From positions 78,031 to 142,030 of the forward strand of contig CAYUIR010000001.1 of assembly GCA_964444815.1 (NCBI GenBank): 64,000 bases of DNA, written 5' to 3'. The notes beneath the pieces were generated by a model. That model was given only the letters and a program-made list of their open reading frames with translations, was not told where the DNA came from and made no database searches. Of the stretch, positions 15,142 through 40,489 are shown piece by piece (position 1 is the first letter of the stretch; every line of letters starts with the position of its first letter). Made by a program: the position numbers and the translations under genes. The DNA is from an uncultured Bdellovibrionales bacterium. Lineage in GTDB: Bacteria > Patescibacteriota > Minisyncoccia > Moranbacterales > UBA1568.

Positions 15142-15525
15142 CTATTTATTAGAATACGGATGGTTATTATATTTAATATCTGTAAAAATCCATCTCACCA
15201 TTATTTTTACGATTAAGACCGTTTCTCCCAGAGTGCCTAATGTTAATACTGAAAGAAAAGGCTGTAAATCAAAGACGTATGGTGAGTCTTTATACGTATA
15301 AAATATTACCCATATAAATACATACGTGATAATATTCTGCACCAACAGAAAAATAGGAAAAGCATATGCAAAAAACTTTCTGATGGTAAGTTTAAAAGCG
15401 GCATCTTTTTGCCATGTCTCCATTATAGAGGCAATGGCCTGATCTTTTTTGCTAGAAAAAACTTCCGCTTGTTCGGAGTAACTGAAATCACCGTTGTCTT
15501 CTGTTATTTGTGGTTCAGCAGGCAT
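15142..15525 (-). CDS. small membrane protein (2-3 TM), translationally coupled to the ImmA-like protease
   Basis: 127 aa. Acidic N-terminus then hydrophobic helices (FAYAFPIFLLVQNIITYVFIWVIFY; FLSVLTLGTLGETVLIV). Start overlaps the upstream stop by 11 nt. Confidence 0.6.
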   Translation of the reverse strand: MPAEPQITEDNGDFSYSEQAEVFSSKKDQAIASIMETWQKDAAFKLTIRKFFAYAFPIFLLVQNIITYVFIWVIFYTYKDSPYVFDLQPFLSVLTLGTLGETVLIVKIMVRWIFTDIKYNNHPYSNK

Positions 15526-16027
15526 AATCAGTTAATCCAAGATTTTTCAATCTATAAGCCATTGCAGTTTGGGAAACACCAAAGACACTTGCAATTAATG
15601 TTACATCCTTGGTTTTTGACCACCATATTTCTATTAAAGGTTTCGGCATCAGTAGACTTGCAGCAAAAGTATTTGCTTCTGCTTCTTCAGTCTTATCCTG
15701 CATTTCTAGATTCACAGTGTCTAGTCTCCAAAAAGTGTCTTTTTGTTTATCTTTGTGTAAGATGTAGTGCCCTAATTCATGAGCAATAGTAAATGACACT
15801 CTAGGAAAATACTCACCATCTGCAACATATATAGTTTTTGATACTCGATCTAGCTGTCCTAAAGCATCGGGTTCAGAAAAGTTAACCTTTTTTAAGGACA
15901 GGCCATATTTTTTAGCAACTTTCCCCAGATCTACTGGCGGAACAATTTGTTCTTCGCCATAAACTTCCGCAAGAACATCGGCTGCTTGAGCTTCTAAAGT
16001 ATTGAGTTTTTCTTGGCTGAGTTTCAT
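15515..16027 (-). CDS. ImmA/IrrE-family (COG2856-like) zinc metallopeptidase
   Basis: HEXXH as AHELGHYILH, downstream EEAEANTFAASLLMP, and a C-terminal VFGVSQTAMAYRLKNLGL tail typical of the family. Confidence 0.75.
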   Translation of the reverse strand: MKLSQEKLNTLEAQAADVLAEVYGEEQIVPPVDLGKVAKKYGLSLKKVNFSEPDALGQLDRVSKTIYVADGEYFPRVSFTIAHELGHYILHKDKQKDTFWRLDTVNLEMQDKTEEAEANTFAASLLMPKPLIEIWWSKTKDVTLIASVFGVSQTAMAYRLKNLGLTDYAC

Positions 16028-16111
16028 ATATAACTAGTTTACTACGCTTTCAGTATACCACAGGGATTGTTCCCTTTCCGCCTATTGAGTAGGTGTTATT
16101 TTTTCTATCTA

Positions 16112-16786
16112 CTAAGGAGTTGAAGATGGCGTCGTAGTAGGAATTTTATTTGGAAACTCGTAGATGATTTTTAGTAACATTTCAACAAAAGAGAGAAGAT
16201 TTTTTGCTTCTTCTTCAGTCATGATTGTAATCTCGTGATTAGCTTCATTTCCCTTTTGACGAATGTGGTCTACCCACCCTTTCGATGCCGGTGGAATATA
16301 GTTCTCATCAGATAGATATTCAACGTATTGAAGAAAGTTCAAATTTTGTGCGGCACCTTTATCTACAGCAACATGCATGAGTAGTTTTCGGCAAGATAGT
16401 ACCGTTGCAGTAAATGCATTTTTCGAATAAGCATCCCTTGCTTCTGTATAGAGATTTTTTACACCGTTGTCCGTAATTCCATTTACATCCCCACCTGGCC
16501 TAATACCAGGAGTTTGTTTTCTAGCTGCATCAAAAAATGTTGGCCTATAACAGTGATGGCAAATGTAAATTTCACCTTTTCTATCTCCACGACCATCTTC
16601 AAGTTCCCCTCGAAAAAAACCAACATTTGAAGCTAAGGAATTATTACAATAGCCACATGTATAGCTTTTTGAATTGAGAATACTCGTATTACTCCAAAAA
16701 TAGCTCATTCCATTAAAACGCTCAATATATTTATATCTTATTATACCACCAAAAATATAGTTGTAATATTTGATAAAATATGACAT
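16112..16786 (-). CDS. zinc-ribbon + DUF4145-like domain protein
   Basis: CGYC...CHHC ribbon, then a helical C-terminal domain (LSCRKLLMHVAVDKGA...WVDHIRQKGNEANHE...EEAKNLLSFVEMLLKIIYE) recalled as DUF4145. The start could be the second MSYF (16708). Confidence 0.55.
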   Translation of the reverse strand: MSYFIKYYNYIFGGIIRYKYIERFNGMSYFWSNTSILNSKSYTCGYCNNSLASNVGFFRGELEDGRGDRKGEIYICHHCYRPTFFDAARKQTPGIRPGGDVNGITDNGVKNLYTEARDAYSKNAFTATVLSCRKLLMHVAVDKGAAQNLNFLQYVEYLSDENYIPPASKGWVDHIRQKGNEANHEITIMTEEEAKNLLSFVEMLLKIIYEFPNKIPTTTPSSTP

Positions 16787-29987: not shown

Positions 29988-30284
29988 TTAGGCTTCAAAA
30001 CCAATTTTGTTGGTTGGTCCTTCCGATGGAGTGACATTACCAAACTGAGCCTCGTATTTGCCAAGGTTGTCTGTCATCGCGACGAGGAGGCGTTTGAAAT
30101 GGCCAGGGTTCAGGATAATCCGAGCATTGAGCGTACCAGTCGGTGGGAAGACGTTCAGGAAATCAATCACAAACTCTTCCTGGGTATGGAGGACATTGGC
30201 CATGTTGGAGTAGAGTCCCCGGAGGGCTTCATCACTCGCTTTAATCTGAATATTATTTTGATTCGATGGTGCCTCTGTGGCCAT
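29988..30284 (-). CDS. DUF3467 domain protein
   Basis: LYSNMANVLHTQEEFVIDFLNVFPP...ARIILNPGHFKRLL pattern. TATAAT upstream. Confidence 0.65.
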   Translation of the reverse strand: MATEAPSNQNNIQIKASDEALRGLYSNMANVLHTQEEFVIDFLNVFPPTGTLNARIILNPGHFKRLLVAMTDNLGKYEAQFGNVTPSEGPTNKIGFEA

Positions 30285-32584: not shown

Positions 32585-33160
32585 CTATTGCATATAAATT
32601 TCTTCCGTTGATTGTAAAAGGTCCATTATCTCATCGTTGTGCATACCACGCGCCACAGCGTACTCCAGATACTTAAGAGAATTTTCATGCTGTTCGGCAT
32701 CATAGGCATCGACTCCATCGAGGGCCAAGATGACTTCATAGTCACGCATGTAGGCGTCGATAGCGGTCGTTCGGACGCACGTCATCGTATTGATACCAGT
32801 GAGAATGAGCGTATCAATGCCCTTTGCTACCAAGTAGGTTTCGAGGTCGGTATTGAAAAATGAACTAAAACGCTTTTTTACTATCTCTCTGTCGTCGGCA
32901 TCACGGTGCAGTTCGGGCAGCAACCTCACACCATCAGTACCCTCTATGGTCACCGGCTTGTTGTGCTTGCGATTGTAGAGTGGAGCATCAGAGAGATCGG
33001 CTTTGTATTCCTGACGTATCCAAATGACCGGGATGCCTCGAGTGTGAGCCCTATCCACAAGTGCATTCACCGAGTTTGTGAGCTTTTCCCGGCGTTCTGC
33101 TAACGGACCGCTAAGGAAAAATTCTTGCTGCAGATCAATAACGAGTAACGCTGGTTGCAT
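32585..33160 (-). CDS. isochorismatase-family cysteine hydrolase (nicotinamidase-like)
   Basis: ALLVIDLQQEF, IPVIWIRQEY, LTGINTMTCVRTTAIDA (catalytic Cys context). Start set at ATG 33160. Confidence 0.8.
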   Translation of the reverse strand: MQPALLVIDLQQEFFLSGPLAERREKLTNSVNALVDRAHTRGIPVIWIRQEYKADLSDAPLYNRKHNKPVTIEGTDGVRLLPELHRDADDREIVKKRFSSFFNTDLETYLVAKGIDTLILTGINTMTCVRTTAIDAYMRDYEVILALDGVDAYDAEQHENSLKYLEYAVARGMHNDEIMDLLQSTEEIYMQ

Positions 33161-33290
33161 AGGTTTGAAAATGCTATTCAAATAATTCAACTTCAGGCTC
33201 ATTTTAGCACATCTGTTCACTATTGACTTTTATGCTGAAATGTGCTATCATAAAAAGTTCGTAAGCTCACGAACGCAACGAGGAAGCGCT

Positions 33291-33627: not shown

Positions 33628-34149
33628 TTAAATTTTCTCTTTTAGAATTTTGTTGATGAACTCTAGCTTTCTTCGATAATATTCTCGCGTTGATAGGCCG
33701 TTGCCAGACTCTTTCAATCTTCTGTATTCTTCCAGCTTGGCTGGGTCGCTTCGCAGGATAGTCTCAAATTTTACCAAGTTTTTCCAGTCGACACTCTCTT
33801 CATTGATCGGGAAAATGTCGATATGTTTGCCGTTTTCCTCTGTAACAAACCGGGCTCGTTTCAGAGGGTAGAAACTTCTGGGCTCACCAAAGCGTGACTT
33901 CAAAGCCTCGACTAACGCTTCAAATCTCGCTGGACTTACTGGGAGGTACACATCAATTTCGTCCTGACCAGATATACCGAGACTCGTCGCGCCATGATGC
34001 TCTATCCTGACATCCTGTCCCAAAGCCTCCTGTATCTTGGCTCTTACCCTTTGAAACTTCTCTTCCGCCGTAATATCAAATGGAACTATCGTGATAGTTT
34101 TGATATCCGATAGGCGTGCAATCCACTTTTCCTGTTCAGGTGTTAACAT
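33628..34149 (-). CDS. GrpB-like nucleotidyltransferase-fold protein
   Basis: IEHHGATSLGISGQDEIDVYLPV...HIDIFP pattern recalled from the GrpB family. The start overlaps the upstream stop (TAATG). Confidence 0.6.
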   Translation of the reverse strand: MLTPEQEKWIARLSDIKTITIVPFDITAEEKFQRVRAKIQEALGQDVRIEHHGATSLGISGQDEIDVYLPVSPARFEALVEALKSRFGEPRSFYPLKRARFVTEENGKHIDIFPINEESVDWKNLVKFETILRSDPAKLEEYRRLKESGNGLSTREYYRRKLEFINKILKEKI

Positions 34150-34439
34150 TATTTACTTTTTCTAAGCTTCACTTCTAGAATAAGTGCTGAACCAATAAAG
34201 AGTATGAAGTCAAAAAGAAGCTTAGCTACTGAAAAGCCATACTCTTTTTCAAAAGTGTAGGCACCTATGTAGACTTCATTCGGACCTTCCCAAATAAATG
34301 GGAGCGGAAAACCCACTATTACTTTTGGTGAGTCTGCAGTAAGCATAAGAGGAATTAGCTGCAAAGTTAGCCCGATGAGTATTGTGACAATCAATAGAAA
34401 GAGTTTACTTGGTCTCATAGAACTATGGCCTCTCACCAT
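34149..34439 (-). CDS. small membrane protein (96 aa, 3 TM)
   Basis: Hydrophobic helices. Coupled to the GrpB-like gene by a 1-nt overlap. AT-rich. Confidence 0.5.
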   Translation of the reverse strand: MVRGHSSMRPSKLFLLIVTILIGLTLQLIPLMLTADSPKVIVGFPLPFIWEGPNEVYIGAYTFEKEYGFSVAKLLFDFILFIGSALILEVKLRKSK

Positions 34440-34476
34440 TCTTGTTGGCGATAGAGAGGATGAAGTTTATATTAAG

Positions 34477-35025
34477 CTAAGCAATAGTTATAAGCTGAAC
34501 TCCGGCTGGAATTTTTGCTTCTACAATCTCATGAACAAGGCCTATGTTCTTCGCTTCTTCTGAGGAGATAATCCCCCCTTTTCTCATTAAGTCATCAATT
34601 ACTTTATAATCAATCCCGGTAAAGTCACTAACATTCTTTGCGATGTTCTCTCTGTCTCGTCTAAGAGTAGCCAATCTTTCACCTAACTGCTCTTCAGTTA
34701 AGCTGGACTGCCCGAAGTTTGCCATGACCCCGTGAAATAAAAAGGATGAGTTTTTCTGAGCGAGACGCTTAGTGCCAGCAGAAAATATCACGCTTGCAAT
34801 TGAATCAATTTGTCCAACATTATGGACATTAATTGGTATCGGCGAAGACTTGATAAGAGTCGCAATATTCATACCATCAAAAACGCTTCCACCGGGAGAC
34901 GAGATAAGAATATTAATTTCAGTAAATTGGCTATTGATAGCAGTTGTAATTGCACCAAGAAGCTGTCCAGCAGACTGAGAGTTTACGCCAGCCTGAAAAA
35001 TTATATATAGTTGCTTCATATCCAT
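34477..35025 (-). CDS. ClpP-fold serine protease-like protein (stand-alone)
   Basis: ISSPGGSVFDG, GQIDSIASVIF (compare ClpP GQAASMG), FLFHGV (compare MIHQP), EEAKNIGLVHEIV (compare EA..YGL.D). Confidence 0.65.
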   Translation of the reverse strand: MDMKQLYIIFQAGVNSQSAGQLLGAITTAINSQFTEINILISSPGGSVFDGMNIATLIKSSPIPINVHNVGQIDSIASVIFSAGTKRLAQKNSSFLFHGVMANFGQSSLTEEQLGERLATLRRDRENIAKNVSDFTGIDYKVIDDLMRKGGIISSEEAKNIGLVHEIVEAKIPAGVQLITIA

Positions 35026-35690
35026 TATTGCTTAGCTATCTTTCTAATTACATCTACTGCCGGAGAATTATAAATAAATTCTACCTGCGAACTTACCTCC
35101 GTAAGAATACTGTGTGCATTTCCAGTTGCCGTAAACTCGATGTGGATCTGTCCGGGTTGTGGCATGGGTTGACCGGGGACATTCATTGCTTGTAAACCAG
35201 GTTGAACAATAACTGGTGCGCTTGTTGTAGACTGAACTGGAGAAATCTTCTGATCTGCAATTCTTCTAATCAAATAGTCAAGAAACTCTACACTGGAATA
35301 GAATCGACTTATAGTATCTGCTCCGGTTTCCTCAAGTTCTGAGATGAACAAATGTATACTATTGTTCCAACTATTTGTTGGTAAAAGGGTGTGTGATAAT
35401 CGATAGGTATGGTTATTTAATCTGGCTTCTCTAATCTTTTGTTCCGCACTACGTATTTCTTGGAGGATGAGACTAGCAATATCGCGTTTCTGGTCCTGCT
35501 TTTGTTTCAAATACAAATAGTAAGCAACAAATGCTGTAAAAAGAGTTAGGACAGCCACGAAAAACTGAGAATTAAGTGCCAACCAAACTTTTGGAAAGTT
35601 TTCAATTACGGCACTTAATATAAAGATTGCCCCAGCTAATAGCGCCGATGAAGTAACTACATATGTTGCAATGTTAAATACTTTTTTCAT
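35025..35690 (-). CDS. 2-TM membrane protein with helical/Pro-Gln-rich ectodomain
   Basis: 221 aa, two N-terminal TM helices. The stop overlaps the ClpP-like ATG by 1 nt. Confidence 0.5.
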   Translation of the reverse strand: MKKVFNIATYVVTSSALLAGAIFILSAVIENFPKVWLALNSQFFVAVLTLFTAFVAYYLYLKQKQDQKRDIASLILQEIRSAEQKIREARLNNHTYRLSHTLLPTNSWNNSIHLFISELEETGADTISRFYSSVEFLDYLIRRIADQKISPVQSTTSAPVIVQPGLQAMNVPGQPMPQPGQIHIEFTATGNAHSILTEVSSQVEFIYNSPAVDVIRKIAKQ

Positions 35691-35716
35691 ACAGTTTAGT
35701 ATTTAGTTAATTATAT

Positions 35717-35775
35717 AAAAGCGGGGCGAAATGCCCCGCTTTTATGCTACTCTTATTTCTTTTCTTCTTCAACTT
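35717..35775 (-). repeat. copy r1 of the dnaK 3' end + terminator repeat
   Basis: AAAAGCGGGGC-GAAAT-GCCCCGCTTTTATGCTAC-TCTTATTTC..., also serving as terminator of the 217-aa gene. Confidence 0.8.
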
Positions 35776-36406
35776 TGCTTTCAGGCGCCCCGTCTGAAGC
35801 CGAGGTAGGCTCAGATTGTACTACTTCTGAAAGCTGTGGTCTTGATGGCACATATGGGGATAAGAGATTCTCACTCCCCTTATGTTCCGGCGACAATTGA
35901 GTGAGATTCTTAGGTTCACCGTTCATATTATTAAAGTTAATGGCAGAAAAGATAAGAATTGAAACAAGGGCGAAAATAAATGTCGATATAGTTATATAGT
36001 TTGTTCTTGTGATACTTTTACCGTACTTCCGTGGAGGAATAAACCCAACAATACTACTACTATTCATAAACATCCGGTCCATGGGAGAGATATCTGCATA
36101 CCACTTGTCTAACGATAGAATTTGATCTTCACTTTGCCAAGTGCTCAACAGATACCCAATTATCTGTGATACTATTGAAATGCTCAGTAGTATCCAAGAA
36201 ATAAAGAGAAGTGATGTGAAATCAAAATGGAGATTCGTATTAAATACGACATTAACAGAGAGAACAAAAACACCTGTAACTAGGTAGAGCAACATCTTAT
36301 CAAGAGCGTTTTGAGAAGAAAGATGATGTGTACGGGCCTGCTCTCTAGTTCTGTTGTAATAATCTTGAGCCTCTTCAAAACTTAAGTTTGGCATATGTTT
36401 ATCCAA
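35753..36406 (-). CDS. polytopic membrane protein (217 aa)
   Basis: 3-4 TM helices and a C-terminal acidic/Ser-rich tail ending EEEKK. AT-rich. Confidence 0.5.
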   Translation of the reverse strand: MDKHMPNLSFEEAQDYYNRTREQARTHHLSSQNALDKMLLYLVTGVFVLSVNVVFNTNLHFDFTSLLFISWILLSISIVSQIIGYLLSTWQSEDQILSLDKWYADISPMDRMFMNSSSIVGFIPPRKYGKSITRTNYITISTFIFALVSILIFSAINFNNMNGEPKNLTQLSPEHKGSENLLSPYVPSRPQLSEVVQSEPTSASDGAPESKVEEEKK

Positions 36407-36463
36407 AAGCGGGGCATTTCGCCCCGCTTTTATGCTACATCTTATTTTTTCTCTTCGCTAGGC
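36405..36463 (-). repeat. copy r2: dnaK terminator + last dnaK codons
   Basis: AAAAGCGGGGC-ATTTC-GCCCCGCTTTTATGCTAC-ATCTTATTTT. The loop is the reverse complement of the r1 loop. Confidence 0.8.
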
Positions 36464-38364
36464 TTTTCCTCTGCAGGCTCGGTCTCGGCGTCCTTCGGAG
36501 CATCAGCCGTACCCTCGGCCTTAGCTTCACCGGCAGCACCCTGCTTGGCGGCCTCAGCTTCGGAAGTGGCCTTATACAGCTTCTCGCCAATCTTCTGAGC
36601 TGCTTGGGAGAGGACTTCGGTCGCTTTCTTGATAGCGTCGAGGTCGTCACCGTTCTTCACCTTGTTGAGCTCTGTGATGGCATCCTCTACCGGCTTCTTC
36701 TCTTCGGCCGTGATCTTGTCACCGGCGTCTTTCATGGCTTTCTCTGTGGTGTATGAGAGCGTGTCGGCCATGTTGCGAGCTTCGATGAGGGCCTTCTTGT
36801 TCTTGTCTTCTTCGGCGTGGAGCTCGGCATCTTTCTTCATGCGCTCGATTTCGTCTTTCGACAAACCGGTCGATGATTCGATGCGGATGTTTTGGCTCTT
36901 GCCAGTCGCTTTGTCCTTGGCGGACACGGTGAGGATACCAGAGGCATCGATATCAAATGTCACCTCAATCTGTGGCACACCCCGGGGAGCCGGCATGATG
37001 CCATCGAGGATAAACTGACCGAGCGACTTGTTGTCCCCTGCCATCTCGCGCTCACCCTGGAGCACATGGATCTGGACCGACGGCTGATTGTCAGAGGCGG
37101 TCGAGAATACCTGGGAGCGACTGACTGGCACCGTGGTGTTGCGGTCGATGAGCGGGGTACGGACTCCGCCCATGGTCTCGATACCAAATGTGAGCGGAGT
37201 AACATCGAGGAGGAGGACATCTTTGACTGAGCCTTCGAGCACACCACCCTGGATAGCGGCACCGAGAGCGACCACTTCATCCGGGTTCACCGTGATGTTG
37301 GGCTTCTTGCCAAAGAATTTCTCTACTTCGGCGAGGACGAGAGGCATGCGGGTCATACCACCGACCAGGACCACTTCGGAGAGGTCCTTTACATCAATCT
37401 TGGCATCGGCGAGGGCCTTCTTCACTGGTTCAAACGAAGCCTTGACTAAATCCCCGACCAATTCTTCGAGCTTGGCCCGAGAGAGTTTGATGAGAAGGTG
37501 CTTGGGACCAGAGGCATCGGCGGTGATAAACGGCTGGTTGATTTCGGATTCCTGCGCGGTCGAGAGTTCAATCTTGGCCTTTTCAGCGGCTTCCTTGATG
37601 CGCTGGAGGGCGAGTGGGTCCTTGGACAGGTCGAGTCCTTCTTGCTTCTTGAATTCATCGAGGATCCAGTGGATGATGCGCTGGTCAAAGTCGTCACCAC
37701 CGAGATGCGTATCACCATTGGTCGAGCGGACTTCTACGGTGTCTTCGGATACTTCGAGGATAGAGATATCGAACGTCCCACCACCGAGGTCATAGACGGC
37801 GATCTTCTCGTCTTTCTTCTTATTGAAGCCATAGGCGAGAGCAGCAGCCGTCGGCTCGTTGATGATACGACGGACATTGAAGCCAGCGATTTCTCCGGCT
37901 TCCTTAGTCGCCTTGCGCTGTGAGTCATCGAAGTAAGCCGGGACCGTGATGACGGCATCGGTGATTTTCTCCCCGAGCTTTTCCTCAGCATCGGCCTTGA
38001 GCTTGGCCAAGACCATGGCGCTTATCTCCTGTGGGCTATACTCCTTGCCACCCATGACGATCTTGACGCCTTCACCGGCCTGGACCACCTTGTACGGCAG
38101 GGTCTTCATATCACGCTGGGCATCTTCGTCACTAAAGTGTCGTCCGATGAGACGCTTGACCGAGAAGAGTGTATTCTCTGGGTTGGTCACACTCTGACGC
38201 TTGGCGAGGAGCCCCACCAGACGCTCACCAGTTTTTGACACGGCGATCATCGACGGAGTCGTGCGATTACCTTCTTTGTTCTCGATAATGGTCGGGGTCC
38301 CACCCTCCACGAATGCCATGGCAGAGTTGGTTGTCCCGAGATCGATTCCTAATATCTTGGCCAT
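36442..38364 (-). CDS. dnaK: molecular chaperone DnaK (Hsp70)
   Basis: [27 protein letters not shown], full-length 640 aa. Confidence 0.98.
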
Positions 38365-38384
38365 ATGATTATATTTACTACTTT

Positions 38385-38405
38385 AATTACGTACTCAATT
38401 ACTTA
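38385..38405. promoter_or_regulatory. TACGTAATT-like site C just upstream of dnaK
   Basis: Plus strand AATTACGTA-CTC-AATTACTTA, which in minus sense is TAAGTAATT-GAG-TACGTAATT. Lies 21-41 nt upstream of the dnaK ATG. Confidence 0.5.
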
Positions 38406-38465
38406 TTATTGGCGATAGCCCCGCTCATGAGCTCCCCCACACTGGTGAGGGAGCCGAGCGCGTGG

Positions 38466-38873
38466 CTACTTCACCGATACCGTGACCTTCTTGGGTTTCA
38501 CGGATTCCTCCTTGGGCATCGTGATGGTGAGAACGCCCTTGTCATAGTGTGCTTGGGCGTCACTTCCCTTCACGGCCATCGGGAGGACGACTGAGCGAGA
38601 GAAGCTCCCGGTGCGGACTTCCTTCCGGTAATAGTCCTCACGCTTCACTTCCTGCTTTTCCTCAGAGCTGCCGCTCACGGTCAGAACATCATTTTCGATA
38701 GTGATGTCGACCTTGGCGGGATCGATACCTGGGACGGAGAGTTCGGCCACGACGTTGTCCTTGTCCTGATAGACATCGAGCGCCGGGAAGAAATCTACTG
38801 CCCCGAGGAACTCATCTCCGAAGAATCGGCTGAGGTCGTTCGTTGGCATAAATGGGATAAGATGGCGTGTCAT
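38466..38873 (-). CDS. Hsp20/alpha-crystallin small heat-shock protein
   Basis: ALDVYQDKDNVVAELSVPGIDP...GVLTITMPK. Start set at ATG 38873, which has AAAGGAGGTGA 7 nt upstream. Confidence 0.88.
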   Translation of the reverse strand: MTRHLIPFMPTNDLSRFFGDEFLGAVDFFPALDVYQDKDNVVAELSVPGIDPAKVDITIENDVLTVSGSSEEKQEVKREDYYRKEVRTGSFSRSVVLPMAVKGSDAQAHYDKGVLTITMPKEESVKPKKVTVSVK

Positions 38874-38933
38874 ATGGTTCTCACCTCCTTTCATTGCATT
38901 GATGATTGTTAACGGTAGATTGTCGATTGAATA

Positions 38934-39563
38934 CTACGAAACGCTCACTCTGGCTGGCCTGACTACTTTCGTACCTACTTTGTATCCCTTCTGAAGTACC
39001 TTGGCGATTTTATGTCCTTTCTCTTCGCTTCCCTCTGCACCTTCGACAGGCTCTGGACCTCCAGTTCCTTCGGAACTTACGGCTTCATGAAGACTGGGGT
39101 CAAAGAGTTCGCCGGGTGTGGCATCTATCATAGTCACTCCATTTTCTGTCAGTACTGTTTCCAATTGTTTCTCAATGTACTGGATACCCGTCACCCAAGG
39201 ACTGTCCTTTTGTTCGGGTGGGACATGCGACGTCGCGGCGCGGAAGTTGTCGAGGACCGGGACGATATCGAGTACAAGCTTCTCTATGAGATATCCGCCG
39301 AGCTCCTTCTGCGATTCTGCCTGCCGTTTCTTGTAGTTTTCAAAGTCCGCTTGGGTCCGCTTTAGGTCGGTCAAATATTCTTCTGCTTTGACCTGCCACT
39401 CCGACTTTTCTTCATCAGTGTTTTCATTCGTCATCGGCTCTTCGCCTGCTTGCTCCTTGCTACTCTCTTCTTCCTCCTCATTCATTGTTGGTTTTTTCTT
39501 AAGCATATGTTTGCGCATTATTTTATTAGGATGAGCGAGTGAGAGCACTCTTGGCGATTTCAA
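38934..39563 (-). CDS. grpE: nucleotide exchange factor GrpE
   Basis: YLTDLKRTQADFENYKKR...VLDNF...H.A. Several in-frame ATGs, so the N-terminus is uncertain. Confidence 0.88.
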   Translation of the reverse strand: MKSPRVLSLAHPNKIMRKHMLKKKPTMNEEEEESSKEQAGEEPMTNENTDEEKSEWQVKAEEYLTDLKRTQADFENYKKRQAESQKELGGYLIEKLVLDIVPVLDNFRAATSHVPPEQKDSPWVTGIQYIEKQLETVLTENGVTMIDATPGELFDPSLHEAVSSEGTGGPEPVEGAEGSEEKGHKIAKVLQKGYKVGTKVVRPARVSVS

Positions 39564-40448: not shown

Positions 40449-40489
40449 ATTATAATAAGTGGTTAGCACTCTGTCAAGTCGAGTGCTAA
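40449..40489 (-). promoter_or_regulatory. hrcA operon promoter (TTGACA-17-TATAAT) overlapped by a perfect CIRCE
   Basis: CIRCE TTAGCACTC-N9-GAGTGCTAA at 40463-40489. The -35 TTGACA (40477-40472) lies in the CIRCE spacer. The -10 TATAAT is at 40454-40449. Confidence 0.9.

What the first reader, a model, noticed from the sequence alone, without database searches (positions are those of the whole stretch)
33628..35690. AT-rich island III: two translationally coupled membrane-protein + enzyme pairs (TM + ClpP-fold protease; TM + GrpB-like nucleotidyltransferase)
Downstream of dnaK, on the same strand, lie four AT-rich genes arranged as two TAATG-overlapping pairs.
- A 221-aa 2-TM protein is followed by a 182-aa ClpP-fold protein. 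The latter retains the Ser (GQIDS) and His (FLFHG) contexts but has no ClpX/ClpA partner.
- A 96-aa 3-TM protein is followed by a 173-aa GrpB-like nucleotidyltransferase-fold protein.

Together with the ImmA-like + TM pair in island I, this makes three enzyme + small-membrane-protein couples confined to AT-rich accessory DNA. That architecture is typical of abortive-infection and defence modules (sensor or enzyme plus membrane effector). I do not recognise these combinations as described systems.
Basis: inference. Interest (0 to 1): 0.66.

Follow-up and report, generated by a model that had tools for sequence, protein, structure and literature searches.

The report
Peptidase plus membrane-protein cassette beside dnaK
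The membrane protein and truncated ClpP protease next to dnaK are one variant of an undescribed two-gene cassette, widespread in Patescibacteria, in which the same membrane protein pairs with different peptidases and often sits beside restriction-modification genes, whereas the small membrane protein plus GrpB pair is only strain-specific cargo.

Summary
**Observation.** Confirmed: the ORFs, strand, TAATG overlaps, AT-richness and the CLP_protease and GrpB domains are all there. Three corrections:
- A fifth AT-rich ORF (217 aa, 3 TM) lies between dnaK and the 221-aa gene.
- The small ORF has 2 TM, not 3, and probably starts at M8 (89 aa).
- Absence of ClpX can only be stated for this window.

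**Pair 1 is a real module.**
- The 221-aa protein belongs to an unannotated membrane-protein family found almost only in Patescibacteria (590 clusters at 50% identity).
- In 80 informative non-redundant loci, the adjacent gene is:
  - an SDH-type Clp-fold protease (51 loci);
  - an N-truncated ClpP, as here (7);
  - a trypsin-like peptidase (1);
  - a MATCAP peptidase (1);
  - a 308-aa family with only a weak proteasome-beta match (13).
- The cassettes are usually more AT-rich than their flanks.
- Their nearest neighbours are enriched in DNA methylases (18/134 against at most 5/140 further out).
- Two cassettes sit between hsdM and hsdS.
- In the window's lineage, the ClpP variant is inherited stably just after the dnaK terminator.

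**Best reading (unproven).** A proteolysis-controlled membrane effector, probably defence-related.

**Pair 2.** The small TM protein plus GrpB occupy a variable slot, and nothing supports them as a system.

No protein of either pair matches PADLOC.

The parts
35025..35690 (-). 221-aa membrane protein: 2 N-terminal TM helices, then a cytoplasmic domain. It belongs to an unannotated, Patescibacteria-wide family with invariant LILQEIRxAE and LLPTNSW motifs, a variable P/Q-rich linker and a conserved C-terminal EFIYNxPA..LRKI helix.
   Evidence: ORF. TM helices. Family alignments. 590 clusters at 50% identity. No hit in Pfam, NCBIfam, PHROGs, PADLOC or PDB.
34477..35025 (-). 182-aa N-terminally truncated ClpP-like serine peptidase. 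Ser75 and His98 are conserved; there is no conserved third acidic residue. This is the peptidase partner of the cassette.
   Evidence: Pfam CLP_protease 78 bits. All NCBIfam ClpP models fall far below their cut-offs. Best solved relative is 9UXT, PpClpP1: E 3.8e-32, TM-score 0.89, rmsd 1.9. AF2 model pLDDT 94.5. Invariant residues.
35715..35743 (-). Second copy of the dnaK terminator hairpin (GCGGGGC-loop-GCCCCGC plus a T run), immediately upstream of the 221-aa gene. It separates the cassette transcriptionally from whatever lies upstream.
   Evidence: Sequence. Motif search. The same hairpin lies between dnaK and the membrane-protein gene in L024, L012 and L008.
36405..36436 (-). dnaK terminator hairpin (first copy), directly after the dnaK stop codon.
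35753..36406 (-). 217-aa 3-TM ORF. This is a lineage-specific insertion flanked by a ~73-bp duplication of the dnaK 3' end plus terminator. It is not part of the conserved cassette.
   Evidence: Absent from L001 and L024. Its last codons (...SKVEEEKK*) and its terminator equal the dnaK end of L001/L024. TM helices. No family hit.
34149..34439 (-). Small 2-TM ORF (96 aa as listed, probably 89 aa from M8 at 34418). Variable cargo, not part of the cassette.
   Evidence: Replaced by an unrelated 88-aa lipoprotein in L001/L024.
33628..34149 (-). 173-aa GrpB-family nucleotidyltransferase-fold protein with a G-x-S...D-x-D motif. Variable cargo, not part of the cassette.
   Evidence: Pfam GrpB 65 bits. 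Singleton 90% cluster. Absent from relatives, which have CutA1 instead. No relative found in viral contigs, plasmids or PDB.
36442..38364 (-). dnaK: the conserved landmark after which the cassette sits in this lineage.
40463..40489 (.). Perfect CIRCE operator (TTAGCACTC-N9-GAGTGCTAA) upstream of the hrcA-grpE-hsp20-dnaK cluster.
   Evidence: 0 mismatches, expected 0.02 by chance.

Best explanation
**What it is.** Genes 35690-34477 form one two-gene cassette: a membrane-anchored protein whose conserved domain faces the cytoplasm, and a cytoplasmic, N-terminally truncated ClpP-type serine peptidase. It is the ClpP-type variant of a modular 'peptidase + membrane protein' cassette that is widespread in Patescibacteria. 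In that cassette the same membrane-protein family is paired with unrelated peptidases: SDH-type Clp-fold, truncated ClpP, trypsin-like, MATCAP, and a 308-aa family of uncertain fold.

**Proposed mechanism (inferred).**
- Peptidases of different folds are interchangeable, while the membrane protein keeps two conserved blocks joined by a hypervariable, P/Q-rich, probably disordered linker.
- The membrane protein is therefore most likely the substrate or effector, and the peptidase its processing enzyme.
- Cleavage in the linker or tail would switch the membrane-bound part on or off.
- The truncated ClpP, by analogy with PpClpP1 (a tetradecamer with a wide-open pore that does not bind ClpX), could take up such a disordered segment without an unfoldase.

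**Proposed role.** The cassettes are compositionally foreign, sit beside R-M genes and recombinases, and twice lie inside type I R-M operons. The most likely role is accessory, in defence or abortive infection. In this lineage the cassette has settled in a variable hot spot just after the dnaK terminator.

**The other genes.** The 96-aa ORF plus GrpB, and the 217-aa ORF, are separate, strain-specific cargo in that hot spot, not systems.

**Shown versus inferred.**
- Shown: the gene pairing, the family distribution, the composition, the neighbourhood enrichment and the ClpP subtype.
- Inferred: cleavage of the membrane protein, the trigger, the membrane effect and the defence role.

**What the confidence covers.** The figure given is for the functional reading. 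That pair 1 is a genuine conserved cassette I hold at about 0.9.
For: **Pairing with the ClpP-like gene**
- The membrane protein and the ClpP-like gene are adjacent (0-18 nt apart) in the window.
- They are also adjacent in L001-L006, L012-L016, L018, L024-L026, L085 and L117, and 195 nt apart in L050, where the ClpP-like gene looks disrupted.
- This holds both at dnaK and at unrelated sites.

**Family census**
- There are 92 non-redundant groups, of which 80 are informative.
- 51 have an SDH protease, mostly within about 30 nt upstream; a few lie 0.1-1 kb away or behind an intervening ORF.
- 13 have the 308-aa family upstream.
- 7 have the truncated ClpP downstream.
- 4 have a 100-aa protein downstream.
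- 5 have none of these. Among those, L058 has a Trypsin_2 peptidase upstream and L037 an ATP-grasp/MATCAP protein upstream.
- SDH identity: Pfam PF01972 2.6e-15 and NCBIfam NF047768.

**Composition**
- The pair is more AT-rich than its flanks in 20 of 31 long loci.
- The difference is -0.12 to -0.15 for three of the four ClpP-type loci measured (L016, L024, L085) and -0.05 for L012.

**Neighbourhood**
- Among 134 proteins within two genes of the pair: 18 DNA methylases, 2 HsdS, 4 GmrSD, 5 HNH, 2 ResIII and 2 restriction endonucleases.
- Among 140 proteins further out in the same loci there are at most 5 methylases. Fisher p = 0.004.
- L028 reads hsdM-SDH-TM-hsdS.
- L041 has the same layout with the 308-aa family.
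- Serine recombinases lie a few genes away.
- L085 carries toxin-antitoxin-like small genes after the pair (judged by eye).
- L117 has an IS200-like transposase nearby.

**ClpP subtype**
- The closest structure is PpClpP1.
- Its properties are taken from PMC12900304.

**Topology.** Positive-inside reading of the sequence.

**Cargo status of the other genes.**
Against: - There is no experimental evidence, and no hit to any PADLOC model.
- The R-M enrichment comes from the SDH-type and 308-aa-type loci. The ClpP-type loci have no R-M neighbours.
- In the window's lineage the pair is inherited vertically next to dnaK across deep divergence: CLPt 78% with DnaK 79% full-length, and CLPt 61% with DnaK 65% over a C-terminal stretch. 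This fits a stable host function better than typical defence turnover.
- A related truncated ClpP without the membrane partner is inserted between grpE and dnaK in another lineage, which hints at a chaperone or proteostasis link.
- Other members of the truncated-ClpP family stand alone.
- The structure of the membrane protein could not be predicted (pLDDT 53). Cleavage, pore formation and docking are therefore all untested.
- The 308-aa family's peptidase nature is unconfirmed: the Pfam Proteasome match is 6.8e-4, below cut-off, and hhalign against HslV was negative.
- The enrichment control uses the same loci, not random Patescibacteria loci.
Confidence: 0.42

Rival explanations
1. **Stress proteostasis.** The pair is a membrane-tethered, ATP-independent ClpP-like protease. 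The 221-aa protein acts as its anchor or adaptor, and the pair works with the DnaK chaperone system in quality control of membrane or unfolded proteins in a reduced genome.
For: - Conserved position directly after dnaK in the hrcA-grpE-dnaK cluster in three lineages.
- A perfect CIRCE operator lies upstream of the cluster.
- Another truncated ClpP was inserted independently between grpE and dnaK in L022/L023.
- The similarity pattern is vertical: DnaK, ClpP-like and TM identities fall together.
- Most family members end in a basic-aromatic or hydrophobic tail ([KR][KR]WYQLF, FLFIF) that could dock on a barrel protease.
Against: - A strong, sequence-conserved terminator hairpin separates dnaK from the pair in every lineage.
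- The pair is 12-17 points lower in GC than dnaK in all lineages.
- The same pair occurs away from dnaK in L016, L050, L085 and L117.
- Most family members sit beside R-M genes, not chaperones.
- One adaptor docking on four or five unrelated peptidase folds is hard to picture.
- The window's lineage lacks the C-terminal tail.
Confidence: 0.25
2. **R-M control or addiction module.** The peptidase degrades a restriction subunit or a labile partner, and the membrane protein is a toxin or regulator. This would resemble restriction alleviation by ClpXP-dependent HsdR degradation in E. coli (from my own knowledge). The cassette would serve to establish or stabilise mobile R-M islands rather than to sense phage.
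For: - The pair is embedded between hsdM and hsdS in L028 and L041.
- Methylases are concentrated within two genes of the pair.
- Serine recombinases lie nearby.
- Toxin-antitoxin-like genes follow the pair in L085 (by eye).
Against: - The ClpP-type loci, including the window, have no R-M genes beside them.
- Most R-M neighbours are type II methylases of varied families, so no single target is apparent.
- No evidence of toxicity.
Confidence: 0.1
3. **The reader's reading of pair 2.** The small membrane protein and the GrpB nucleotidyltransferase form a second, independent defence or toxin module.
For: - One-base TAATG overlap and same strand.
- The nucleotidyltransferase motif is intact (sequence).
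- The pair lies in AT-rich accessory DNA.
Against: - The slot is variable: a congeneric genome has an 88-aa lipoprotein plus CutA1 there.
- The small protein has only two homologue clusters among 5.8 billion. The non-identical one follows a YbaK-like gene, has lost the C-terminal TM, and is not followed by GrpB.
- GrpB is a singleton cluster.
- The two genes differ in composition, 0.38 against 0.44.
- No PADLOC hit.
Confidence: 0.06
4. **Prophage remnant.** The ClpP-like gene is a decayed phage head-maturation (prohead) protease.
For: The best PHROGs hit is head maturation protease (phrog_94, 2.1e-27). The NCBIfam Clp_rel_HeadMat model is its top hit.
Against: - The score of 64 bits is well below the 120-bit cut-off.
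- There are no capsid, portal or terminase genes in the island.
- No member of the membrane-protein family was found in 2.9 million viral contigs.
- The protein is closer to the cellular truncated ClpP1 (9UXT) than to anything else solved.
- It is conserved as an intact gene with an invariant Ser/His across lineages.
Confidence: 0.03

Closest known systems
PpClpP1 of Pseudomonas plecoglossicida (PDB 9UXT; PMC12900304)
   Same: - Similar length (183 aa against 182 aa).
- It lacks the N-terminal axial-loop region.
- It keeps the Ser and His but has no acidic third residue.
- It is the best sequence match (E 3.8e-32) and the best fold match (TM-score 0.89) among solved structures.
- The paper reports a tetradecamer with a 42.7 A pore, weak peptidase activity and no ClpX binding.
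   Different: - Only 25% identity in the structural alignment.
- PpClpP1 works as a paralogue that forms mixed rings with a canonical ClpP2. No canonical ClpP is seen in this window, and the gene is instead coupled to a membrane protein.
- The residue aligned with PpClpP1 Pro151 appears to be Gly here (my reading of the alignment).
Bacterial gasdermin + protease operons (works like; from my own knowledge)
   Same: A two-gene layout in which one conserved membrane-acting effector is partnered with interchangeable proteases of different folds. The effector has a C-terminal segment that a protease could remove. Both are found in defence islands.
   Different: - No gasdermin homology was detected, and the fold is unknown (pLDDT 53).
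- The partner here is already membrane-anchored by TM helices.
- The peptidases are Clp-fold or trypsin-like, without recognisable sensor domains.
- Cleavage and cell killing are untested.
NfeD/stomatin (STOPP) operons (from my own knowledge)
   Same: A Clp-fold serine protease gene is coupled to a membrane-anchored protein whose C-terminal region is the protease's substrate.
   Different: - The partner has no SPFH/Band_7 domain.
- The NfeD1b_N match of the peptidase is insignificant (E 0.05, 13.6 bits against a cut-off of 40).
- The protease here is soluble, not membrane-bound.
SDH family Clp-fold serine proteinase (Pfam PF01972, NCBIfam NF047768)
   Same: This is the commonest peptidase partner of the same membrane-protein family (51 of 80 informative loci). 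Like the window's peptidase it has a Clp fold.
   Different: It is a different family from the window's peptidase: ~341 aa with an extra C-terminal region, encoded upstream rather than downstream of the membrane protein. The Patescibacteria members score far below the NCBIfam cut-off (61 against 250 bits).
Genes embedded in type I R-M operons, such as the PrrC anticodon nuclease (from my own knowledge)
   Same: The SDH-type and 308-aa-type cassettes sit between hsdM and hsdS (L028, L041), the position typical of 'second-line' abortive-infection genes.
   Different: No nuclease is present, the window's own cassette is not R-M-linked, and no functional data exist.
GrpB family (Pfam PF04229)
   Same: The 173-aa protein matches over the full model length (65 bits) and keeps the nucleotidyltransferase G-x-S...D-x-D motif.
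   Different: It is divergent: no PDB or plasmid relative was found by sequence. It is not fused to CoaE, and the family's function is unknown in general.

Membership tests
Pfam CLP_protease (PF00574) superfamily | Score above the gathering threshold over the whole domain | tested here: met
   78 bits against 20.2. Residues 6-170 match model positions 17-181 of 182.
Canonical ATP-dependent ClpP (TIGR00493 and related NCBIfam equivalogs) | Score above the curated cut-off | tested here: not met
   39.5 bits against 308.6 for TIGR00493. All 9 ClpP models fall far below their cut-offs.
Canonical ATP-dependent ClpP | N-terminal axial loops that gate the pore and dock ClpX/ClpA | tested here: not met
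   The protein starts 4 residues before the first beta-strand. The Pfam match begins at model position 17. The best structural match is the N-truncated PpClpP1.
Canonical ATP-dependent ClpP | Ser-His-Asp catalytic triad | tested here: not met
   Ser75 and His98 are invariant. No invariant Asp or Glu occurs at the third position in 31 homologues.
Canonical ATP-dependent ClpP | Cognate AAA+ unfoldase (ClpX/ClpA/ClpC) in the genome | not testable with these tools
   Only 64 kb is available. No second ClpP-like ORF is in the window, and ClpX/ClpA were not searched for specifically.
N-terminally truncated ClpP1-type (PpClpP1, 9UXT) | ~180 aa, no N-terminal region, Ser/His kept, closest by both sequence and fold | tested here: met
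   E 3.8e-32, 13 orders of magnitude better than the next ClpP. TM-score 0.89, rmsd 1.9 over 183 columns.
N-terminally truncated ClpP1-type (PpClpP1, 9UXT) | Homotetradecamer with a wide pore; no ClpX binding | not testable with these tools
   Only a monomer model was made. These properties are known only for PpClpP1.
Phage ClpP-related head maturation protease (NF045542, phrog_94) | Score above the cut-off, and location in a head-morphogenesis gene cluster | tested here: not met
   64.2 bits against a cut-off of 120. No capsid, portal or terminase ORFs nearby. The partner family is absent from viral contigs.
Any known or candidate defence system in PADLOC-DB 2.0.0 | HMM match of at least one component | tested here: not met
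   No hit at E <= 0.1 for the five window proteins. No hit for the SDH protease, the membrane-protein homologues or the 100-aa partner.
NfeD/stomatin operon | NfeD-type protease plus an SPFH/Band_7 partner | tested here: not met
   NfeD1b_N E 0.05, 13.6 bits against 40. No Band_7 match in the 221-aa protein.
Bacterial gasdermin-protease system | Gasdermin fold in the effector | tested here: inconclusive
   No Pfam or PADLOC hit. The AF2 model is too poor to compare (pLDDT 53).
Patescibacteria 'peptidase + LILQEIR-motif membrane protein' cassette (defined here) | Membrane protein with the LILQEIRxAE and LLPTNSW motifs, immediately adjacent on the same strand to a peptidase gene | tested here: met
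   Window protein: HMM score 238 bits with the invariant motifs present. Its adjacent ClpP-like gene overlaps by 1 nt.
GrpB (PF04229) | Score above the gathering threshold over the full domain | tested here: met
   65 bits against 25.5. Residues 19-170 match model positions 2-158 of 159.

The most novel reading that the evidence does not exclude
The LILQEIR-motif membrane protein is the common effector of a previously undescribed, Patescibacteria-wide family of anti-phage (abortive-infection-type) systems. Interchangeable peptidases (SDH-type Clp fold, truncated ClpP, trypsin-like and others) would activate it by cutting its variable linker, in a way analogous to gasdermin-protease systems. 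This would be one of the first large native defence families defined for the CPR, a group reported to have very few recognised defence systems beyond R-M.
Probability: 0.35. Interest if true: 0.8.

Novelty: new variant of a known kind. Interest (0 to 1): 0.6.

Why it matters
- **A gap in what is known about this phylum.** Patescibacteria (CPR) make up a large share of bacterial diversity. One paper read here (PMC12366544) notes that very few defence systems have been identified in them.
- **A testable hypothesis for an orphan family.** The membrane-protein family has 590 clusters at 50% identity. It is tied to peptidases of several folds and clustered with R-M genes. That suggests a proteolytic switch acting on a membrane effector.
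- **A possible partner for truncated ClpP.** The finding gives the poorly understood N-truncated ClpP class a candidate physiological partner. That class has so far been characterised only as PpClpP1.
- **If the proteostasis reading is right instead.** It would show how reduced genomes couple an ATP-independent Clp barrel to the membrane and to the DnaK locus.

Tried and rejected
1. **Canonical ClpP.** Rejected on NCBIfam scores, the missing N-terminus and the missing Asp.
2. **Prophage head-protease remnant.** Rejected: no structural genes nearby, and no viral contigs carry the partner family.
3. **NfeD/stomatin.** No SPFH domain in the partner.
4. **The GC-rich hairpin as a cassette recombination site or multi-copy repeat.** It occurs only at the dnaK terminator and in its local duplication.
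5. **Structure of the 221-aa protein.** AF2 with 10 sequences gave pLDDT 53, which is unusable.
6. **The 308-aa partner family as a proteasome or HslV homologue.**
   - Only sub-threshold N-terminal matches were found (Pfam 6.8e-4, NCBIfam 0.0059).
   - It is left as 'uncertain'.
7. **GrpB relatives.** Searched in viral contigs, plasmids and PDB; none found.
8. **Literature.** Searches for PF01972, the SDH protease, ClpP-like defence and the family's motif strings found nothing relevant. The Patescibacteria defence genes LdgA and DdgA of PMC12366544 could not be compared because no sequences are held.
9. **Promoter and terminator scan of the island.** Uninformative: the counts were close to those of shuffled sequence, and the scan missed the obvious dnaK hairpins.


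Full report
**1. What is in the window**

On the - strand, downstream of dnaK (36442-38364), lie five ORFs, not four:
- 217 aa (35753-36406)
- 221 aa (35025-35690)
- 182 aa (34477-35025)
- 96 aa (34149-34439)
- 173 aa (33628-34149)

After these come a + strand 109-aa ORF and an isochorismatase-family gene (32585-33220).

Both 'pairs' overlap by one base as TAATG (sequence).

GC and GC3 of the island genes and their neighbours:

| Gene | GC | GC3 |
|---|---|---|
| four island genes (217, 221, 182, 96 aa) | 0.38-0.40 | 0.31-0.35 |
| GrpB | 0.44 | 0.47 |
| dnaK | 0.55 | 0.67 |
| isochorismatase | 0.46 | 0.52 |

Family searches:
- Pfam gives CLP_protease (1.1e-21) for the 182-aa protein and GrpB (1.1e-17) for the 173-aa protein. 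It gives nothing for the three membrane proteins.
- PADLOC gives nothing for any of the five.
- Hydropathy gives 2 TM (221 aa), 2 TM (96 aa) and 3 TM (217 aa).

The observation therefore stands, with small corrections.

**2. The ClpP-like protein is an N-truncated ClpP**
- All NCBIfam ClpP equivalogs score far below their cut-offs, for example 39.5 against 308.6 bits.
- The best PHROG is a head-maturation protease, but the corresponding NCBIfam model is also below its cut-off.
- A profile of 31 homologues hits one solved protein far better than any canonical ClpP. That protein is 9UXT, ClpP1 of Pseudomonas plecoglossicida: E 3.8e-32, against 8.6e-19 for the next hit.
- The AF2 model (pLDDT 94.5) superposes on 9UXT with TM-score 0.89 and rmsd 1.9 A.
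- The paper on that structure (PMC12900304) describes:
  - a 183-aa ClpP lacking the N-terminal region;
  - a homotetradecamer with a 42.7 A pore;
  - a Ser-His-Pro 'triad' and weak peptidase activity;
  - no ClpX binding.
- In the family alignment Ser75, His98 and the SSxGG oxyanion motif are invariant. No acidic third residue is conserved.

**3. Pair 1 is conserved, and the dnaK position is lineage-specific**
- Close relatives (ClpP-like 84-86% identical) carry hrcA-grpE-dnaK-221aa-ClpPlike, then an 88-aa gene, CutA1 and isochorismatase.
- A Patescibacteria MAG at 61% identity has HSP70-207aa-ClpPlike.
- A Moranbacteria MAG (membrane protein 56% identical) has hrcA-grpE-x-x-dnaK-223aa-ClpPlike.
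  - The pair is 12-17 GC points below dnaK in each of these genomes.
  - A sequence-conserved terminator hairpin (AAGCGGGGC-ATTTC-GCCCCGCTT) always separates it from dnaK.
  - The same pair occurs at unrelated sites: L016 (near a divergent Band_7 gene), L050, L085 (after rpoD and dnaG, followed by small toxin-antitoxin-like genes) and L117 (near an IS200-like transposase). There it is again 13-15 points more AT-rich than its flanks in L016 and L085.
- A more distant truncated ClpP (40% identity) without this partner lies between grpE and dnaK in another lineage, together with DUF6941. It too is an AT-rich insert: GC 0.28-0.30 against 0.40-0.43.
- Other members stand alone (Dehalococcoidia) or sit in an integrase/HTH context.

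**4. The membrane protein family is the key**
- A word-indexed search found only 8 clusters.
- A pattern scan of GTDB species genomes with the family alignment found 28 loci. Those whose record titles name a lineage are nearly all Patescibacteria, spread across the phylum: Moraniibacteriota, Kazan, Yanofsky-, Shapiro-, Saccharibacteria, Gracili-, Paceibacterota, CPR2, Vogel-, Kaiser-, Peri- and Nomurabacteria. Some auto-labelled MAG titles (Bdellovibrionales, Gammaproteobacteria) are probably wrong.
- A metagenome scan added 80 loci.
- A full HMM search of 1.84 billion representatives found 590 clusters at E <= 1e-3.
- The family has the following features:
  - one TM helix in most members, two in the window's lineage;
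  - invariant LILQEIRxAE and LLPTNSW motifs;
  - a hypervariable P/Q-rich linker;
  - a conserved EFIYNTPA..KLRxI helix;
  - in most members, a basic-aromatic or hydrophobic C-terminal tail ([KR][KR]WYQLF, FLFIF), which the window's lineage lacks.
- It has no Pfam, NCBIfam, PHROGs, PADLOC or PDB relative.
- Its motif strings occur in no paper of the library.
- Positive-inside reading puts the conserved domain in the cytoplasm, with the signal-less peptidases.

**5. Its neighbour is almost always a peptidase, but not always the same one**

I clustered the neighbours, built HMMs and classified all loci. There are 92 non-redundant (90%) groups, of which 12 have flanks too short to judge.

| Adjacent gene | Groups (of 80 informative) |
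|---|---|
| ~341-aa SDH-type Clp-fold serine protease, upstream and mostly within about 30 nt (a few 0.1-1 kb away) | 51 |
| 308-aa family, upstream | 13 |
| truncated ClpP, downstream | 7 |
| 100-aa protein, downstream | 4 |
| none of these | 5 |

- SDH identity rests on Pfam PF01972 (2.6e-15) and NCBIfam NF047768.
- Among the five 'none' groups:
  - L058 has a Trypsin_2 peptidase upstream;
  - L037 has an ATP-grasp/MATCAP carboxypeptidase fusion upstream;
  - L091 has DUF6941 downstream, the same family that follows the ClpP-like gene in L022.
- The 308-aa family has only sub-threshold N-terminal matches to proteasome beta subunits, and I could not confirm it.
- Counting only secure peptidases, 60 of 80 informative groups have one adjacent. 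With the uncertain family the figure is 73 of 80.

**6. Genomic neighbourhood**

I took the two genes on each side of the pair in about 49 non-redundant loci, excluding the window's lineage (134 proteins). As a control I took 140 proteins lying at least three genes away in the same loci.

| Family | Within two genes (134) | Three or more genes away (140) |
|---|---|---|
| N6_N4_Mtase | 12 | at most 1 |
| EcoRI_methylase | 4 | at most 1 |
| N6_Mtase | 2 | 2 |
| C5 DNA methylase | not in the top-25 list | 1 |
| Methylase_S | 2 | at most 1 |
| GmrSD_N | 4 | at most 1 |
| HNH | 5 | at most 1 |
| ResIII | 2 | at most 1 |
| restriction endonucleases | 2 | at most 1 per family |
| Fic | 2 | 2 |
| large serine recombinases | 2 | 4-5 |

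- The sources are for the near set and for the control.
- All DNA methylases together: 18/134 against at most 5/140, Fisher p = 0.004.
- L028 reads hsdM-SDH-TM-hsdS. L041 has the same layout with the 308-aa family.
- The pair is more AT-rich than its flanks in 20 of 31 long loci.
- Caveats:
  - The control is internal, not a random-locus baseline.
  - The R-M signal comes from the SDH-type and 308-aa-type loci, not from the ClpP-type loci.

**7. The rest of the island is a variable hot spot**

Against the congeneric L024 (dnaK 92.6% and isochorismatase 94.6% nucleotide identity), the pair is 89% identical.
- The 217-aa ORF is an insertion flanked by a ~73-bp duplication of the dnaK 3' end and terminator. 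Its own C-terminus (...SKVEEEKK*) is the ancestral dnaK end.
- The segment 34478-33168 (96 aa, GrpB and the 109-aa ORF) is replaced in L024 by an unrelated 88-aa lipoprotein plus CutA1.
- The 96-aa ORF has only two homologue clusters:
  - one is from the same organism (L018, 99.96% identical DNA);
  - the other (80% identity) starts at the equivalent of M8, follows a YbaK-like gene, has lost the C-terminal TM and is not followed by GrpB.
- GrpB is a singleton 90% cluster with no relative in viral contigs, plasmids or PDB.

Pair 2 is thus not supported as a system.

**8. Mechanism**

Shown:
- A conserved two-gene unit made of a membrane protein and a peptidase.
- Peptidases of different folds substitute for one another.
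- The composition is foreign.
- The SDH-type and 308-aa-type variants cluster with R-M genes.
- The window's peptidase is of the open-pore, unfoldase-independent ClpP type, by homology.

Inferred:
- Unrelated peptidase folds substitute for one another, while the membrane protein keeps two conserved blocks joined by a variable, probably disordered linker. The simplest model is therefore that the membrane protein is the substrate or effector, switched by cleavage.
- This is comparable in logic to gasdermin-protease operons and to NfeD/stomatin.
- The accessory, R-M-linked context suggests a defence or abortive-infection role.

Against this stand:
- the stable vertical inheritance beside dnaK in this lineage;
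- a second, independent truncated-ClpP insertion in a dnaK operon;
- the lack of any experimental or PADLOC support.

A membrane-tethered proteostasis protease therefore remains a serious rival. I put the defence-type effector model at about 0.4-0.45, proteostasis at 0.25, R-M control or addiction at 0.1, and the rest lower.

**9. Novelty and verdict**
- The ClpP-like protein alone is a new member of a recently characterised kind (PpClpP1-type).
- The cassette is, as far as these libraries show, undescribed. By that I mean an orphan, CPR-wide membrane protein with interchangeable peptidases, often next to R-M genes.
- I rate it a new variant of a known kind (a protease plus membrane-effector module) of moderate to high interest.
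Its interpretation is partly supported for pair 1 and unsupported for pair 2.

Noticed in passing
window 35715-36477: The 217-aa 3-TM ORF is flanked by two copies of the dnaK 3' end plus terminator (~73 bp). The hairpin loop is inverted between the copies (GAAAT against ATTTC), and the ORF's last codons are the ancestral dnaK C-terminus. It looks like an insertion that recombined at the terminator palindrome.
   Followed up: partly
window 38383-38940 (hsp20, 38466-38894): An HSP20 gene lies between grpE and dnaK. It is absent from the congeneric L024, where grpE and dnaK are 26 nt apart. Its GC (0.54) is host-like, so this may be a deletion in L024 rather than an insertion here.
   Followed up: partly
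window 40463-40489: A perfect CIRCE operator (TTAGCACTC-N9-GAGTGCTAA) lies upstream of the hrcA-grpE-hsp20-dnaK cluster.
   Followed up: yes
window 15142-16786: AT-rich island I holds three genes. A Peptidase_M78 (IrrE/ImmA-type, HEXXH) gene at 15515-16027 overlaps by 11 nt a 127-aa ORF that looks membrane-spanning by eye, at 15142-15525. A DUF4145 protein lies at 16112-16786. This is another peptidase plus putative membrane-protein couple in accessory DNA.
   Followed up: partly
window 29988-30284; L017 1361-1645; L039 6575-6823: A DUF3467 protein is encoded ~5 kb from the cassette in the window. DUF3467 genes lie immediately next to members of the membrane-protein family in two other lineages: overlapping upstream in L017 and downstream in L039.
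   Followed up: partly
L022/L023 5001-6347; L091 4524-4913: DUF6941 follows a truncated ClpP-like gene inserted between grpE and dnaK (L022). It also follows a membrane-protein family member that lacks a recognised peptidase (L091). It may be a further interchangeable component of these cassettes.
   Followed up: partly
L085 7152-9579: After the membrane-protein/ClpP-like pair, the AT-rich island continues with small genes. By eye these resemble Phd/YefM-RelE and HicB-HicA toxin-antitoxin pairs.
   Followed up: no
L012, L008, L024 and window: dnaK terminator: The dnaK terminator hairpin is almost identical at nucleotide level (AAGCGGGGCATTTCGCCCCGCTT) in genomes whose DnaK is only 65-79% identical. 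A simple intrinsic terminator would not be expected to be this conserved.
   Followed up: partly
window 35025-35690 compared with L012/L024/L026: The cassette stays 5-15 GC points below its host genome in lineages that diverged long ago, although it appears to be inherited vertically. The expected drift toward host composition (amelioration) has not happened, and this is unexplained. Possible causes are recurrent replacement at the same site or selection for AT-rich sequence.
   Followed up: no
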